DNA of 33,510 nucleotides, taken from the IMG/VR virus record IMGVR_UViG_2703718823_000008. One strand, given 5' to 3'. The notes under the pieces are model-generated. The model worked only from the letters and a program-made list of their open reading frames with translations, ran no database searches and had not been told where the DNA came from. Of the stretch, positions 1,086 to 7,592 are shown one piece after another (position 1 is the stretch's first letter; each line of letters starts with the position of its first letter). This DNA is from a virus. Taxonomy: Duplodnaviria > Heunggongvirae > Uroviricota > Caudoviricetes. A program made the translations under genes and the position numbers.

Positions 1086-1176
1086 ATTCATTACGATATG
1101 GGAATTTCCATATCGGGTAAAAAGGGGGAGTAAAACGAGAGTCAAGTAGATGTATCGGTCGAAAATTGAGCAGTAA

Positions 1177-1199
1177 AAGGGGCGATATTAATCGCCCTT
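1177..1199 (-). terminator. Intrinsic terminator-like hairpin downstream of the minus-strand ibrAB-like operon
   Basis: GC-rich hairpin AAGGGGCGAT / ATCGCCCTT between convergent genes; short T-run on the minus strand. Confidence 0.4.
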
Positions 1200-1250
1200 G
1201 AGTTGTATTAGTTATCATTTTGTTGCCTTGCCGGGAGTAAGTCGAGCTTG

Positions 1251-1895
1251 CTATTTAACTGTCCATGCCGGGCTGAAATCCACTTCCTGAAATAACTCAG
1301 TTAGCCCGCTAATTTGTTTAAGTCTCAGTACTTCATCCTGATCCATACCCAACTCAGTGCCAATGCGTTCATCTGCCCATCCCAAGCGTGAAAGATCTCT
1401 TACAATATCAGACACTGAGTCTATCTGGTGTTTCCCCCTAGCCCGGTTATGTCGAATGGTTGCGGCAATGCGTGCGGCTTGCCCTTTTCTCTCTGGATTA
1501 ATACAGGCTACAGGCAGCCAGCCCCTCAGACGTTTTCCTGTAACTGATTCTCTGCCCAATAACTGACGATGAAAACCATCCACCACCAGATAATGATTCT
1601 TCTCCTCTGACACCACCACCGGTTGTGTGAAACCATCTTTTTCCAGTGACTGCTTCAGCAGTTTCTTCTCACTTGGTGCCATGACATTGGGGTTATAATC
1701 GTTGGCTACCACCTCATCCGCTTTCACCCACAGCACACAGTCTACAGGCTCCTGTGCAAAAGGACTGACTTCATGCAGTACCCTGCGCAGATGGTTAAGG
1801 GCTCGTATGGACTCTTCTTCGGGCTGTTCCCGACTGAAGTACTGACGAATCATGTTGCTTAGTACATCCATCTCAGGCGTCACAGAATCCCCCAT
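1251..1895 (-). CDS. ibrB: ParB-like nuclease domain protein (IbrB family)
   Basis: 214-aa ORF overlapping the upstream PAPS-reductase-like gene by 16 nt (operon); ParB/Srx-like N-terminal region; pairing with an IbrA-like gene. Confidence 0.8.
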   Translation of the reverse strand: MGDSVTPEMDVLSNMIRQYFSREQPEEESIRALNHLRRVLHEVSPFAQEPVDCVLWVKADEVVANDYNPNVMAPSEKKLLKQSLEKDGFTQPVVVSEEKNHYLVVDGFHRQLLGRESVTGKRLRGWLPVACINPERKGQAARIAATIRHNRARGKHQIDSVSDIVRDLSRLGWADERIGTELGMDQDEVLRLKQISGLTELFQEVDFSPAWTVK

Positions 1896-3106
1896 TCTTT
1901 CCTCCTTTCCTTCATTCGTTGCAGATAACGCTCATAGTGCCGGGGTTTGTTCGGACTGAAGGAGAGGGTCCGGCACCAGAAGTCATTCTTTATGAGCGTC
2001 TTACAGATACGTCGCCAGGACGGGATATCCCGGCTCCCCAGGTCATTCTCCTGTTCATCCGGGATATCATCCGGGAAGCCCCGCGTCTGATACCAGCGCA
2101 GGTAGACTGCAATTTTGTTACGGTAATGTTCTGCTGTTCTTTCTGGCATAACATCCAGCATGAACATTGCGTAGCTGCGCCAGGTATGATGAGCCGGTTT
2201 TGTGATTCGTTTACGCAGAGCAAAATAGGCACCGCTTTCATTGGCATAAAGAGCGCCACTGGCAGCCCCTGACACTCGCTCACACATCCTGGCCCAGGTT
2301 TCCGGCTCCAGAACATGGTAAAGCCACAGCCCCTTACGCTGTTCCGGGCCAAAGGGCTCACAAACACGCATGTTGCGTAACGACACTCCGGCACGGTACA
2401 TTAGGTCGTACAGGGGATTGTAGATGGCGCGGGTTCTTGAGTTATACGTCCATATATCATTTGTTTTCCAGTCATACAATGGATACATGGTGTAGTAAAA
2501 ACCATCGGGTGAAGCGGTGGTCCAGGGTTTATCATCTGCATATCTCAGTTTGCGCTGAGACACCAGTCCCATAAAGCGATTGAGCGATTCATCAGCACGA
2601 ACACCAGTTAGTATTCCCACTCCACATCGGTTACCGGCAAACCAGGAAGAAAATGCCGGAACAAATTCTTCAAACGTCATGGCATACCGATAAAATGGGA
2701 AATACGACATATCTGTAATAGCGTCATCTGGTGGCTGACGAACCCATTCTACACCTGGCTCCCAACATATCCATTCTGGCTGAAACTGAGAGACGCCATT
2801 TACCGTAGTCAGAGGAAGCGCTACCCAGTAAAAATTGTCTGTCACATGCCGGTACATTTCCCTCATCTTTTGGATATGATTAATCGTGCACTGATATTGG
2901 GCTTCCCAGTCAATGAATAAAACCGAAAAACGACGTTTTTTTCTACTGGCGACTTCTGCCACAAGATGGAAAAGCACAGTAGAGTCTTTGCCACCAGAAA
3001 AAGACAAGCAGACCTCATTAAACGTTTCGAACAACCATTCAATGCGATGGATTGCTGCTGACAGAACATTTTCCCCTGTGCTGATTTTTGTTATGGTTCC
3101 TGACAT
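1880..3106 (-). CDS. ibrA: PAPS reductase-like PP-loop protein (IbrA family)
   Basis: 408-aa ORF with PP-loop motif SGGKDS near the N-terminus (FSGGKDSTVLFHL); low-GC flanks; AT-rich promoter-like region at 3107-3260. Confidence 0.85.
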   Translation of the reverse strand: MSGTITKISTGENVLSAAIHRIEWLFETFNEVCLSFSGGKDSTVLFHLVAEVASRKKRRFSVLFIDWEAQYQCTINHIQKMREMYRHVTDNFYWVALPLTTVNGVSQFQPEWICWEPGVEWVRQPPDDAITDMSYFPFYRYAMTFEEFVPAFSSWFAGNRCGVGILTGVRADESLNRFMGLVSQRKLRYADDKPWTTASPDGFYYTMYPLYDWKTNDIWTYNSRTRAIYNPLYDLMYRAGVSLRNMRVCEPFGPEQRKGLWLYHVLEPETWARMCERVSGAASGALYANESGAYFALRKRITKPAHHTWRSYAMFMLDVMPERTAEHYRNKIAVYLRWYQTRGFPDDIPDEQENDLGSRDIPSWRRICKTLIKNDFWCRTLSFSPNKPRHYERYLQRMKERRKEWGIL

Positions 3107-3278
3107 ACAATCTTCTAATGATAAAACGGTAAAACCTATACTTATTAAGTAATATTATGTAACAATCATTTTGCATGAATGCAATATGTGATGGTCTTAT
3201 ACACTTTTTATCGCATTCTGGTTAAAATCATCCAGCCAGCCTGAACAACTGGCACCTGCTGTGTCACCGGAGAACCCG

Positions 3279-5976: not shown

Positions 5977-5983
5977 CNNAGAC

Positions 5984-6331: not shown

Positions 6332-7390
6332 ATGCTTAATACTGTAAAAATATCCAGTTGTGAGTTAATCAACGCCGACTGCCTTGAATTTATCCGGTCG
6401 TTACCCGAAAATTCTGTTGACCTGATAGTCACGGACCCGCCGTACTTTAAAGTGAAGCCTGAGGGCTGGGATAACCAGTGGAAGGGCGACGATGATTACC
6501 TGAAGTGGCTGGACCAGTGTCTTGCGCAGTTCTGGCGGGTGCTGAAACCTGCCGGAAGTCTTTACCTGTTCTGTGGCCATCGCCTGGCATCTGATATCGA
6601 AATCATGATGCGTGAACACTTCAGTGTGCTGAACCATATTATCTGGGCAAAGCCGTCCGGACGCTGGAACGGGTGCAACAAGGAAAGCCTGAGGGCGTAT
6701 TTCCCCGCCACAGAGCGCATTCTGTTCGCGGAACATTATCAGGGGCCGTATCGCCCGAAAGATGCCGGGTATGAGGCGAAGGGCAGGGCACTGAAACAGC
6801 ATGTGATGGCCCCGCTGATTTCTTACTTTCGTGATGCGCGTGCTGCCCTGGGGATAACGGCAAAACAGATAGTGGATGCCACAGGAAAGAAAAATATGGT
6901 GTCGCACTGGTTCAGTGCCAGCCAGTGGCAGTTACCGGACGAAAGCGATTATCTGAAATTACAGGCGCTGTTTGCCCGGGTGGCAGAAGAGAAGCATCAG
7001 CGCGGAGAACTGGAAAAGCCACATCACCAACTGGTCAGCACATACAGTGAACTGAACCGGCAGTATACGGAACTGCAGAGTGAATATAAGCATCTGCGGC
7101 GGTATTTCGGTGTGACGGTGCGGGTGCCGTACACCGATGTGTGGACGCATAAACCGGTGCAGTACTATCCCGGGAAACATCCGTGCGAAAAACCGGCAGA
7201 AATGCTGCAGCAGATAATCAGTGCGAGCAGTCGTCCGGGTGACCTGGTTGCAGATTTCTTCATGGGGTCGGGTTCGACAGTCAAAGCAGCGATGGTGTTG
7301 GGGCGTCGTGCTACAGGCGTTGAGCTGGAGACTGAACGTTTTGAGCAGACGGTCAGGGAAGTTCAGGATTTAGCCAGCCAGAACGGATGA
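6332..7390 (+). CDS. Orphan DNA methyltransferase (N6-adenine or N4-cytosine, beta class)
   Basis: DPPY motif near the N-terminus (LIVTDPPYF) and FxGxG S-adenosylmethionine-binding motif (FFMGSGST) near the C-terminus; no adjacent restriction endonuclease gene. Confidence 0.9.
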   Translation: MLNTVKISSCELINADCLEFIRSLPENSVDLIVTDPPYFKVKPEGWDNQWKGDDDYLKWLDQCLAQFWRVLKPAGSLYLFCGHRLASDIEIMMREHFSVLNHIIWAKPSGRWNGCNKESLRAYFPATERILFAEHYQGPYRPKDAGYEAKGRALKQHVMAPLISYFRDARAALGITAKQIVDATGKKNMVSHWFSASQWQLPDESDYLKLQALFARVAEEKHQRGELEKPHHQLVSTYSELNRQYTELQSEYKHLRRYFGVTVRVPYTDVWTHKPVQYYPGKHPCEKPAEMLQQIISASSRPGDLVADFFMGSGSTVKAAMVLGRRATGVELETERFEQTVREVQDLASQNG

Positions 7391-7430: not shown

Positions 7431-7506
7431 GGCCCTTTAGCTCAGTGGTGAGAGCGAGCGACTCATAATCGCCAGGTCGCTGGTTCAAATCCAGCAAGGG
7501 CCACCA
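7431..7506 (+). tRNA. tRNA with CAT anticodon, Ile2 (lysidine) type, resembling the host ileX/ileY tRNA and the ileZ of Stx phages
   Basis: Manual cloverleaf fold: acceptor GGCCCTT/AAGGGCC, D-loop with GG, anticodon loop CTCATAA, T-loop TTCAAAT, 3' CCA encoded. Confidence 0.85.
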
Positions 7507-7515
7507 TATCACATA

Positions 7516-7592
7516 CCGCCATTAGCTCATCGGGATAGAGCGCCAGCCTTCGGAGCTGGCTGCGCGGGGTTCGAGTCCTCGATGGCGGTCCA
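7516..7592 (+). tRNA. tRNA-Arg with TCG anticodon
   Basis: Manual cloverleaf fold: acceptor CCGCCAT/ATGGCGG, anticodon stem CCAGC/GCTGG with loop CTTCGGA (G at position 37), T-loop TTCGAGT, 3' CCA encoded. Confidence 0.75.

What the first reader, a model, noticed from the sequence alone, without database searches (positions are those of the whole stretch)
1251..3260. IbrAB-like ParB-nuclease plus PAPS-reductase-like operon as a low-GC moron in the early (nin) region
A two-gene minus-strand operon with overlapping reading frames is embedded among plus-strand nin-region genes. It encodes a ParB/Srx-fold protein and a PP-loop (SGGKDS) PAPS-reductase-like protein and is flanked by an AT-rich promoter region and a terminator. 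The same domain pairing is found in DNA phosphorothioation (DndB/DndC-like) logic. IbrAB-type pairs have, to my knowledge, only been linked to regulation of immunoglobulin-binding genes, so their biochemical activity in a phage context is unresolved. Possibilities are DNA or nucleotide modification, anti-defence, or defence.
Basis: partly seen in the sequence, partly recalled or inferred. Interest (0 to 1): 0.6.

Follow-up and report, generated by a model that had tools for sequence, protein, structure and literature searches.

The report
IbrAB regulator-enzyme pair in a prophage
This is a prophage copy of the known but biochemically unsolved IbrA/IbrB gene pair (an ATP-using PP-loop enzyme plus a ParB-like DNA-binding protein), carried as swappable cargo in a lambda-like E. 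coli prophage that also carries an immunoglobulin-binding eib gene of the kind IbrAB is reported to switch on.

Summary
Two minus-strand genes overlap by 16 nt among plus-strand early genes of a lambdoid prophage. The first, at 1880-3106, encodes a 408-aa protein with a PAPS_reduct domain, a DUF3440 domain and an SGGKDS PP-loop. The second, at 1251-1895, encodes a 214-aa ParB/Srx-like protein.

The pair belongs to the named IbrA/IbrB family. It is 83% identical in DNA to a phage record annotated IbrA/IbrB, and RefSeq calls the small protein "IbrB-like". It is exchangeable cargo: related O157:H7 prophages have hokD in the same slot. "Low-GC" is overstated, since the genes are 48-49% GC against 53% for the window.

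The Dnd/phosphorothioation analogy holds only at domain level. The DndC, CysH and BrxP models are missed by far, no Dnd partner genes are nearby, and the defining cysteine sets are absent.

New clues:
- The PP-loop-then-ParB gene order is kept in 87-89 of 95 loci across many phyla.
- 26 distant relatives add an upstream SNF2 helicase, which points to action on DNA.
- The same prophage carries an EibD-like gene.
- Other E. coli copies sit beside adhesin and fimbrial loci.

Best reading: a DNA-directed activator module for silenced surface genes. Its chemistry remains unknown.

The parts
1151..3204 (.). Extent of the exchangeable ibrAB cassette (the cargo slot between the DUF551 block and the nin genes).
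   Evidence: blastn against the EDL933 prophage (L107). Homology (96%) ends at window 1150 and resumes (88%) at 3205. EDL933 holds 424 bp with hokD in between.
1880..3106 (-). ibrA-like gene, 408 aa. N-terminal PP-loop (SGGKDS) domain of the PAPS-reductase/CysD/FMN-adenylyltransferase fold, plus a basic helical C-terminal DUF3440 domain.
1251..1895 (-). ibrB-like gene, 214 aa. ParB/Srx-fold N-domain with invariant NxYNPN, DGFHR and TIRHNRARGxH motifs, followed by an HTH-like C-terminal segment.
   Evidence: phrog_2159 at 4.5e-83. The profile matches Noc 7ol9 at 1.6e-6 and ParB 4umk at 2.6e-6. Invariant motifs are seen in 81 and in 38 diverse homologues.
1880..1907 (-). Translational-coupling junction. 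The SD AAGGAGG (1907-1901), the ibrB ATG (1895-1893) and the ibrA stop TGA (1882-1880) give a 16-nt overlap.
   Evidence: Sequence read directly. The same 16-nt overlap recurs in homologues down to 53% identity. Short overlaps or gaps of about 30 nt or less are seen in most other loci.
3107..3204 (-). AT-rich upstream part of the cassette. Presumed promoter and leader of the operon (inferred).
   Evidence: 36.6% GC over 3107-3278. The simple scan gave no consensus sigma-70 hit. Upstream DNA is not conserved between ibrAB alleles: blastn matches stop at the coding ends.
1178..1199 (.). Terminator-like GC-rich hairpin, readable on both strands, 52 nt downstream of the ibrB stop and inside the cassette.
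   Evidence: Scan hit on both strands. The RNA fold shows the 7-bp stem GGGCGAU/AUCGCCC followed by CUUUU. The whole-region z-score is only -1.3.

Best explanation
The pair is a member of the IbrA/IbrB family. It is a translationally coupled two-protein module carried as exchangeable cargo in a lambdoid prophage integrated beside ompW in Shiga-toxigenic E. coli.

IbrB is a ParB/Srx-fold protein. Its nucleotide-binding pocket is remodelled (DGFHR in place of GERR) and it has a C-terminal HTH-like segment. It most likely binds DNA in an NTP-dependent way.

IbrA is a PP-loop ATP pyrophosphatase or adenylyl-transferase of the CysD/FMN-adenylyltransferase/PAPS-reductase fold. Its extra C-terminal domain is basic and helical.

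I propose that the two work as one DNA-directed complex. It would be expressed from its own promoter, against the direction of the phage early transcripts, and so probably in the lysogen. It would switch on otherwise silent, horizontally acquired surface-protein genes. The first candidate target is the EibD-like gene about 38 kb away at the right end of the same prophage.

Shown here:
- the genes, their domains and conserved motifs;
- the obligate pairing of the two genes;
- the cargo status of the cassette;
- the eib gene in cis.

Taken from the 2002 report, recalled from memory because the paper is not held in the library:
- IbrA and IbrB together activate eib expression.

Inferred:
- the two proteins form a complex;
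- the target is DNA or chromatin;
- ATP is cleaved to AMP and PPi to adenylylate a DNA-associated substrate or to drive counter-silencing.
For: Family identity. The DNA is 83.1% identical to Escherichia phage PhiR5_2 genes annotated IbrA/IbrB. RefSeq names the small protein 'IbrB-like domain-containing protein' at 100% identity. UniRef names close homologues 'Co-activator of prophage gene expression'.

Coupling. The genes overlap by 16 nt with an internal SD. The IbrB-like gene lies directly downstream on the same strand in 87 of 95 loci from many bacterial phyla and an Asgard MAG, or 89 counting two ORF-start artefacts.

Enzyme-like conservation. In IbrA, SGGKDS, D66, E68, R170, E173, S174 and R177 are invariant or nearly so down to about 27% identity. 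In IbrB, NxYNPN, DGFHR and RHNRARG are invariant at 34-60% overall identity.

DNA link. In 26 of 80 genome loci a complete SWI2/SNF2 helicase (phrog_62 at 2e-97; ZorD- and DpdE-like) sits immediately upstream, often overlapping by 4 nt.

Regulatory link. The same prophage encodes a YadA-like protein that matches the EibD structure 2xqh at 2.4e-72. Its 5' end is 37% GC.

Context of other E. coli copies. They lie beside:
- a YadA adhesin;
- HyxB and SPATE autotransporters with K88 fimbriae;
- Pix-like fimbriae with an exopolysaccharide cluster;
- a PerC-family regulator with the Cah autotransporter;
- Pef fimbriae.

K-12 paralogue. The chromosomal ybdNM operon sits next to ybdO. YbdO represses ybdNM, and ybdO itself is silenced by H-NS (PMC9068703; PMC9141747).

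Cargo status. hokD occupies the slot in O157:H7 prophages.
Against: No experiment on this allele exists.

The 2002 activation result could not be re-read, because the paper is not held.

The adhesin-neighbourhood pattern rests on 13 hand-sampled contexts, not on a statistical test. Virulence islands are rich in such genes anyway.

No promoter was detected, so expression in the lysogen is assumed.

A purely regulatory role does not explain three things: why a PP-loop enzyme is always needed, why the pair is spread across phyla that lack eib, or why SNF2 helicases join it.

The IbrB structure model failed (pLDDT 46), so the HTH and the pocket geometry are read from sequence only.

Two cysteines are common in IbrA: C378 in 90% and C249 in 72% of 93 loci. 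Thiol chemistry is therefore not excluded.
Confidence: 0.45

Rival explanations
1. Non-sulfur covalent DNA modification system. IbrB loads on DNA, as DpdB does for DpdA or DndB does with DndC. IbrA adenylylates a base carbonyl or a backbone or terminal phosphate, and the AMP is kept or displaced by a nucleophile. The mark would protect phage DNA from restriction (anti-defence), or act epigenetically. In the second case this merges with the best explanation as its mechanism.
For: PP-loop enzymes activate oxygens by adenylylation. This is established for TilS, ThiI, QueC and GuaA, while CysD and FMNAT transfer AMP to sulfate or phosphate. These are the closest folds. DNA-modifying enzymes recur in pairs with ParB-superfamily proteins: DpdA/DpdB, DndC/DndB and ParB-methylase fusions. 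An SNF2 helicase is fused into the operon in 26 loci and a GNAT in 6. The motifs of both proteins are conserved at enzyme grade. In environmental viral contigs the pair is co-oriented with replication-block genes.
Against: No restriction-type nuclease or other discriminating effector is linked in E. coli contexts. Here the operon runs against the early transcripts, which is a poor arrangement for modifying replicating phage DNA. Many copies sit in non-phage islands and plasmids. No modification has been reported for E. coli K-12, which carries ybdNM (own knowledge; not tested).
Confidence: 0.2
2. Anti-phage defence or superinfection exclusion expressed by the lysogen. IbrB would act as a ParB/Srx-type NTP-regulated nuclease or nucleotidase against incoming DNA, with IbrA as sensor or co-effector.
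For: ParB/Srx domains act as non-specific nickases or NTPases in Osa, GmrS and ParB-methylases (review text). The slot holds other lysogen-expressed cargo (hokD) in sister prophages. The orientation is opposite to the lytic genes. The SNF2 neighbours resemble the ZorD, DpdE and DrmD defence helicases.
Against: No PADLOC system model matches. The only hits are an 80-residue PP-loop hit to BrxP (4.5e-8) and weak DndC hits. No toxin or effector partner is present. The sampled contexts are virulence islands rather than defence islands. The pair is present in 39% of complete E. coli genomes, yet I know of no defence screen that recovered it (own knowledge).
Confidence: 0.12
3. Dnd/Ssp-like DNA phosphorothioation. 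IbrA would be a DndC/SspD-type sulfur-inserting ATP pyrophosphatase and IbrB a DndB-type regulator.
For: The superfamilies are the same: DndC and SspD are PAPS-reductase-like and DndB is ParB-like. There are weak DndC hits (PADLOC 6e-5; TIGR03183 at 0.0037). IbrB's DGFHR resembles the DGQHR signature I recall for DndB (own knowledge; not compared here).
Against: TIGR03183 scores 16.2 bits against a cut-off of 290.4. No cysteine desulfurase, DndD or DndE occurs in any of 95 neighbourhoods. No cysteine is invariant, and the DndC dyad and Fe-S ligand sets are missing. The best sequence and fold matches are CysD and FMN adenylyltransferase, not thiolation enzymes.
Confidence: 0.04
4. Small-molecule or nucleotide metabolism rather than DNA. 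IbrB would be a Srx/SerK/SbnI-like ATP-dependent phosphotransferase and IbrA an adenylyl-transferase, acting in sequence on a metabolite or signalling nucleotide. Effects on gene expression would then be indirect.
For: The IbrB profile also touches the ParB/Srx-fold kinases SbnI (0.01) and SerK (0.2). The pocket motif is DGFHR, not the CTP-clamp GERR. IbrA's closest relatives (CysD, FMNAT) act on small molecules. ybdNM rises together with the cys regulon in a ybdO mutant.
Against: The SNF2 helicase linkage, the basic C-terminal domain of IbrA and the HTH-like tail of IbrB all point to nucleic acid. No transporter or pathway genes co-occur consistently.
Confidence: 0.1

Closest known systems
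IbrA/IbrB of E. coli ECOR-9 (immunoglobulin-binding regulator; Sandt, Hopper & Hill 2002, J Bacteriol 184:3640, cited in PMC8065619)
   Same: Overlapping gene pair. Same two domain architectures. About 83-87% DNA identity to alleles annotated IbrA/IbrB or IbrB-like. Phage-associated. An eib-family gene is present in the same strain, and here in the same prophage.
   Different: The ECOR-9 pair was described on a separate island beside antirepressor-like genes (own recollection; the same arrangement is seen in PhiR5_2). This allele sits in the nin-region cargo slot of the eib-bearing prophage itself, a placement found in only 11 of 5426 genomes. I could not compare directly with the ECOR-9 sequence.
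YbdN/YbdM of E. coli K-12 (b0602/b0601), repressed by the LysR regulator YbdO/CitR
   Same: Same PAPS-reductase/DUF3440 plus ParB-like pair and the same gene order. IbrA is about 57% identical to the copy at the chromosomal ybdO-ybdN-ybdM-type locus (L038). The function is also unknown.
   Different: The chromosomal copy is conserved in Enterobacteriaceae with a dedicated LysR repressor. The overlap is 28 nt instead of 16. It is not phage-borne.
DndB/DndC (and SspD, BrxP) of DNA phosphorothioation systems
   Same: A PAPS-reductase-superfamily PP-loop ATPase is paired with a ParB-superfamily protein, and the pair acts on DNA.
   Different: IbrAB has no DndA/D/E or Ssp/BREX partners. The HMMs are far below cut-off. 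The cysteine dyad and Fe-S ligands are absent. The DUF3440 domain is specific to the IbrA family.
DpdA/DpdB of the 7-deazaguanine DNA modification system
   Same: A DNA-modifying enzyme depends on a ParB-like NTPase partner, and SNF2-type helicases (DpdE, DpdJ) lie in the same cluster. The SNF2 neighbour of distant IbrAB pairs hits DpdE models.
   Different: The enzyme there is a tRNA-guanine transglycosylase homologue, not a PP-loop protein. No Dpd genes occur near IbrAB.
VirB of Shigella (ParB-family CTP-dependent counter-silencer of H-NS; own knowledge, not tested here)
   Same: A ParB-fold protein co-opted as a transcriptional activator of horizontally acquired, AT-rich virulence and surface genes.
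   Different: VirB keeps a ParB-like CTP pocket and needs no enzymatic partner. IbrB has DGFHR in place of GERR and is always encoded with IbrA.

Membership tests
IbrA/IbrB family | Large subunit with a PAPS_reduct (PP-loop) domain followed by DUF3440. | tested here: met
   PF01507 at 2.3e-16 and PF11922 at 2.7e-33. SGGKDS at residues 37-42.
IbrA/IbrB family | ParB/Srx-like small subunit encoded immediately downstream, with overlapping reading frames. | tested here: met
   16-nt overlap. The same arrangement is found in 87-89 of 95 homologous loci.
IbrA/IbrB family | Sequence similarity to proteins named IbrA and IbrB. | tested here: met
   83.1% DNA identity over both genes to PhiR5_2 IbrA/IbrB. 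RefSeq gives the product name 'IbrB-like domain-containing protein' at 100% identity.
IbrA/IbrB family | Both genes together activate expression of prophage eib genes. | not testable with these tools
   Only circumstantial evidence: an EibD-like gene (2xqh, 2.4e-72) lies in the same prophage.
DndBCDE phosphorothioation | DndC equivalog (TIGR03183) above its cut-off. | tested here: not met
   16.2 bits against a cut-off of 290.4. PADLOC DndC at 6e-5 over a partial region.
DndBCDE phosphorothioation | Conserved DndC cysteines (dyad and Fe-S ligands) for sulfur transfer. | tested here: not met
   No invariant Cys. C249 is kept in 72% and C378 in 90% of 93 loci. Each is replaced by A/S/D/G/M/L in members that keep the PP-loop and the ParB partner.
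DndBCDE phosphorothioation | Linked DndA/IscS-type desulfurase, DndD ATPase and DndE. | tested here: not met
   Absent from the window context and from the recurrent neighbours in 95 loci.
CysH PAPS/APS reductase | CysH models above cut-off, and a C-terminal catalytic Cys (ECGLH motif). | tested here: not met
   TIGR02057 scores 33.5 against 254.2 and TIGR00434 scores 32.1 against 165.1. The protein continues into DUF3440 and ends ...KEWGIL, with no ECGLH.
ParB partition CTPase (ParABS) | ParB_N above its cut-off, with the GERRxR CTP motif and a ParA partner. | tested here: not met
   ParB_N scores 20 bits, below 26.3. DGFHR aligns to GERR. No ParA gene is nearby.
BREX type 4 (BrxP) | Full-length BrxP together with the BREX core genes (BrxA/B/C, PglZ). 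| tested here: not met
   The BrxP hit covers residues 17-96 only (4.5e-8). No BREX genes are in the region.
Any defence system catalogued in PADLOC v2 | Match to a system's component models. | tested here: not met
   Only the partial BrxP and DndC hits and a 13.6-bit PglX hit.

The most novel reading that the evidence does not exclude
IbrAB would be the two-gene core of a widespread, undescribed ATP-dependent DNA-marking system. Ancestrally the system would consist of an SNF2 translocase, a PP-loop adenylylating enzyme and a ParB/Srx loader, sometimes with a GNAT. In enterobacterial prophages, islands and plasmids this core would have been reduced and co-opted as an epigenetic switch. The switch would turn on silenced adhesin and surface genes such as eib.
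Probability: 0.2. Interest if true: 0.8.

Novelty: new member of a known kind. Interest (0 to 1): 0.45.

Why it matters
IbrAB-like pairs are found in 2094 of 5426 complete E. coli genomes, including ST131 and O157:H7. E. coli K-12 carries a chromosomal paralogue (ybdNM), and homologues occur across bacterial phyla and in phages. Even so, the literature I could search shows no biochemical activity for either protein.

If the module controls adhesins, autotransporters or Eib proteins, it is a mobile virulence regulator. If it marks DNA, it would be a new modification chemistry.

This prophage is a convenient test bed. The activator pair and a likely target (eib) sit in one inducible element, and natural 'empty-slot' relatives carry hokD instead.

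Tried and rejected
1. AF2 model of IbrB from 36 close homologues. It reached pLDDT 46 and pTM 0.27 and was unusable, so no fold search was run on it. A profile-versus-PDB sequence search was used instead.

2. Apparent long 'fusion' homologues of IbrA (P0242, P0286, P0301 and others). They carry no extra Pfam domains and are probably gene-calling artefacts.

3. My first claim, 'no conserved cysteine, hence no sulfur chemistry'. A better-sampled alignment weakened it, with C378 at 90% and C249 at 72%. I now claim only that the CysH and DndC cysteine signatures are absent.

4. Promoter search. The consensus scan gave nothing in 3107-3278. Alleles share no upstream DNA, so no phylogenetic footprint is possible.

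5. Literature. Ten searches found only annotation-level mentions of IbrA/IbrB. Neither Sandt 2002 (PMC135156) nor Maindola 2014 (PMC4241021) is held. The Aravind-group Dnd, BREX and polyvalent-protein papers do not mention IbrAB.

6. The c17 protein (377-460 aa) upstream of the SNF2 gene in 6 loci. It had no Pfam, NCBIfam or PADLOC hit and matched only phrog_16123, which has unknown function.

7. Sulfur-assimilation auxiliary metabolic gene reading. Rejected, because the CysH and CysD models are far below cut-off.
Full report
**What is there**

The window matches a lambdoid prophage at 100% identity. The prophage is integrated next to ompW in Shiga-toxigenic E. coli such as STEC2018-607, NZ_CP075697.

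Between the replication/ead/DUF551 block and the nin-type genes (DUF968, RusA, Q) lie two minus-strand ORFs, while every neighbour is on the plus strand:
- 1880..3106, 408 aa
- 1251..1895, 214 aa

The two ORFs overlap by 16 nt. A strong Shine-Dalgarno sequence (AAGGAGG, 1907-1901) lies 5 nt before the downstream ATG, inside the upstream gene. This is classical translational coupling.

A GC-rich hairpin followed by CTTTT lies 52 nt after the second stop, at 1178-1199.

The 172-nt stretch upstream of the first gene is 36.6% GC. The consensus scan found no sigma-70 promoter there.

**Domains**

The large protein has:
- PAPS_reduct (2.3e-16)
- DUF3440 (2.7e-33)
- a canonical PP-loop, SGGKDS

Its AF2 model has pLDDT 84.6. 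Its N-terminal approximately 170 residues superpose on several folds:
- more distantly TilS and TtuA

The best sequence-profile match in the PDB is CysD, at 6e-10. The helical C-terminal domain (about 240-408) has no solved counterpart and is basic, with pI 9.7.

The small protein falls below Pfam's ParB_N threshold, at 20 bits against 26.3. It matches phrog_2159 'ParB-like' at 4.5e-83.

A profile of 38 diverse homologues aligns to the N-domains of Noc (1.6e-6) and ParB (2.6e-6). In that alignment NDYNPN lies on ParB's N.fQPR and DGFHR lies on GERR.

**Family identity**

- The DNA is 83% identical to genes annotated IbrA/IbrB in Escherichia phage PhiR5_2.
- RefSeq names the small protein 'IbrB-like domain-containing protein'.
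- UniRef names close homologues 'Co-activator of prophage gene expression'.
- An ibrAB-like pair at 80-90% DNA identity occurs in 2094 of 5426 complete E. coli genomes.
- The K-12 paralogue is ybdNM, at about 57% protein identity for the large subunit (L038). It is repressed by the LysR regulator YbdO, whose own gene is silenced by H-NS.

**Moron status**

Sister prophages of O157:H7, including EDL933, share 96%-identical left flanks and 88%-identical right flanks. Between them they carry a 424-bp hokD segment instead. The ibrAB cassette therefore spans about 1151-3204. Only 11 of 5426 genomes have ibrAB in this slot.

The compositional signal is weak. The genes are 48-49% GC and the cassette is 46.9%, against 52.9% for the window. 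'Low-GC' is overstated, but 'exchangeable, oppositely oriented cargo with its own terminator' is correct.

**Test of the Dnd analogy**

DndB is a ParB-superfamily protein and DndC is PAPS-reductase-like, so the domain pairing is real. The defining features fail:
- The DndC model scores 16 bits against a cut-off of 290. The CysH and CysD models are likewise far below cut-off.
- The BrxP hit covers only the 80-residue PP-loop region.
- No desulfurase, DndD or DndE occurs in this or any of 95 related neighbourhoods.
- No cysteine is invariant.

I first concluded that there was no sulfur chemistry at all. A better-sampled alignment showed C378 in 90% and C249 in 72% of 93 loci. Each is replaced in members that keep the PP-loop and the partner gene. 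Thiol chemistry is therefore not excluded, but the CysH and DndC signatures are absent.

**New evidence from relatives**

The family is moderate in size: 1817 clusters at 50% identity with E<=1e-3, and 310 with E<=1e-30.

I examined 95 loci: 79 from genomes of many bacterial phyla and one Asgard MAG, plus 16 viral contigs. The ParB-like gene directly follows the PP-loop gene on the same strand in 87 of them, or 89 counting two ORF-start artefacts. Three of the remaining loci are contig ends.

Both proteins carry invariant, enzyme-grade motifs despite 27-60% overall identity:
- IbrA: SGGKDS, D66, E68, R170, E173, S174, R177
- IbrB: NxYNPN, DGFHR, TIRHNRARGxH, and the HTH-like GMDxDEvLRLKQ

In 26 distant loci a complete SWI2/SNF2 helicase sits immediately upstream, often overlapping by 4 nt. 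It matches phrog_62 at 2e-97 and resembles ZorD and DpdE. These loci come from Alphaproteobacteria, Bacteroidia, Clostridia, Opitutia, Azoarcus and Prevotella. Six loci add a GNAT.

This argues that the ancestral substrate is double-stranded DNA or something bound to it.

**Regulatory context**

About 38 kb to the right in the same prophage, roughly 6.5 kb beyond the window, lies a YadA-like gene. It matches the EibD crystal structure at 2.4e-72, and its 5' end is 37% GC.

IbrA and IbrB were named because together they activate prophage eib genes (Sandt et al. 2002, cited). The details are from my own memory, because the paper is not held.

Thirteen other E. coli contexts that I sampled are islands or plasmids bounded by IS remnants. 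The pair lies next to:
- a YadA adhesin
- HyxB and SPATE autotransporters with K88 fimbriae
- Pix-like fimbriae with an exopolysaccharide cluster
- a TonB receptor with a yaiO/yaiP-type cluster at an asn-tRNA island (ST131)
- a PerC-family regulator directly downstream, with Cah (O157:H7, O39, ST167)
- Pef fimbriae
- iro/fec genes

This is suggestive but not a statistical test.

**Mechanism**

The best-supported reading, at confidence about 0.45, is a heteromeric, DNA-directed module. IbrB would bind DNA with a remodelled ParB/Srx nucleotide pocket. IbrA would spend ATP through its PP-loop. The outcome would be activation of silenced, horizontally acquired surface genes, with eib the candidate here.

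Whether the activation works by ParB-like counter-silencing or through a covalent, non-sulfur DNA mark is open. I give the modification route about 0.2.

The other rivals and my estimates are:
- defence or superinfection exclusion, 0.12
- small-molecule metabolism, 0.10
- true phosphorothioation, 0.04

**Novelty and verdict**

This is a new member of a known, named family, in an unusual slot of an eib-bearing prophage. The family's biochemistry is still unsolved, as far as ten literature searches could show.

Interest is moderate. A specialist would not be surprised to see IbrAB in a prophage. The cis arrangement with eib, the hokD 'empty-slot' relatives and the SNF2 linkage do make the open question experimentally tractable.

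Noticed in passing
L099:24766-26232 (NZ_CP075697.1 4838765-4840231), about 6.5 kb beyond the right end of the window: The same prophage carries a 488-aa YadA-like trimeric autotransporter after the tail-fibre genes. It matches the EibD structure 2xqh at 2.4e-72, and its 5' end is 37% GC.
   Followed up: partly
L075:4697-7817; also L057, L061, L087, L088 and 21 further loci: In distant relatives (32-46% identity) from several phyla the pair is preceded by a complete SWI2/SNF2 helicase gene. This gives a three-gene cassette. Sometimes an unknown 377-460-aa protein (phrog_16123) lies upstream and a GNAT lies between or beside the two core genes.
   Followed up: partly
L107:2302-2725 (E. coli O157:H7 EDL933 prophage), equivalent to window 1151-3204: Sister prophages carry the type I toxin gene hokD in exactly the slot occupied here by ibrAB. 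The slot is therefore a cargo hotspot between the DUF551 block and the nin genes.
   Followed up: yes
L104:7647-7916 and L111:6647-6916 (O157:H7 TR01; O39:NM): In O157:H7-type islands a PerC-family transcriptional regulator gene lies 78 nt downstream of ibrB on the same strand. The Cah autotransporter gene is a few kb away.
   Followed up: no
window 29581-30675 (+): A 364-aa ORF sits inside the tail-gene block. RefSeq annotates it as porin OmpC, so it is a second cargo gene of this prophage.
   Followed up: no
window 6332-7390 (+) and 7431-7592 (+): Downstream of Q lie a DNA methyltransferase gene and two tRNA genes. ARAGORN calls them tRNA-Met (CAT) and tRNA-Arg (TCG), while RefSeq calls the first tRNA-Ile.
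   Followed up: no
window 5978-5979, 22062-22063, 22224-22225: The window contains three two-base non-ACGT (N) positions. Downstream of about 5.7 kb its coordinates are also offset by 113 bp relative to NZ_CP075697. The window is therefore not base-for-base that record outside the region studied.
   Followed up: no
L006-L010 and L002 (PhiR5_2 57883-59696): The 92%-identical (protein) ibrAB alleles in other E. coli viral contigs sit in a different context: next to antirepressor-like genes and a giant 1500-2800-aa gene, not in the nin slot.
   Followed up: partly
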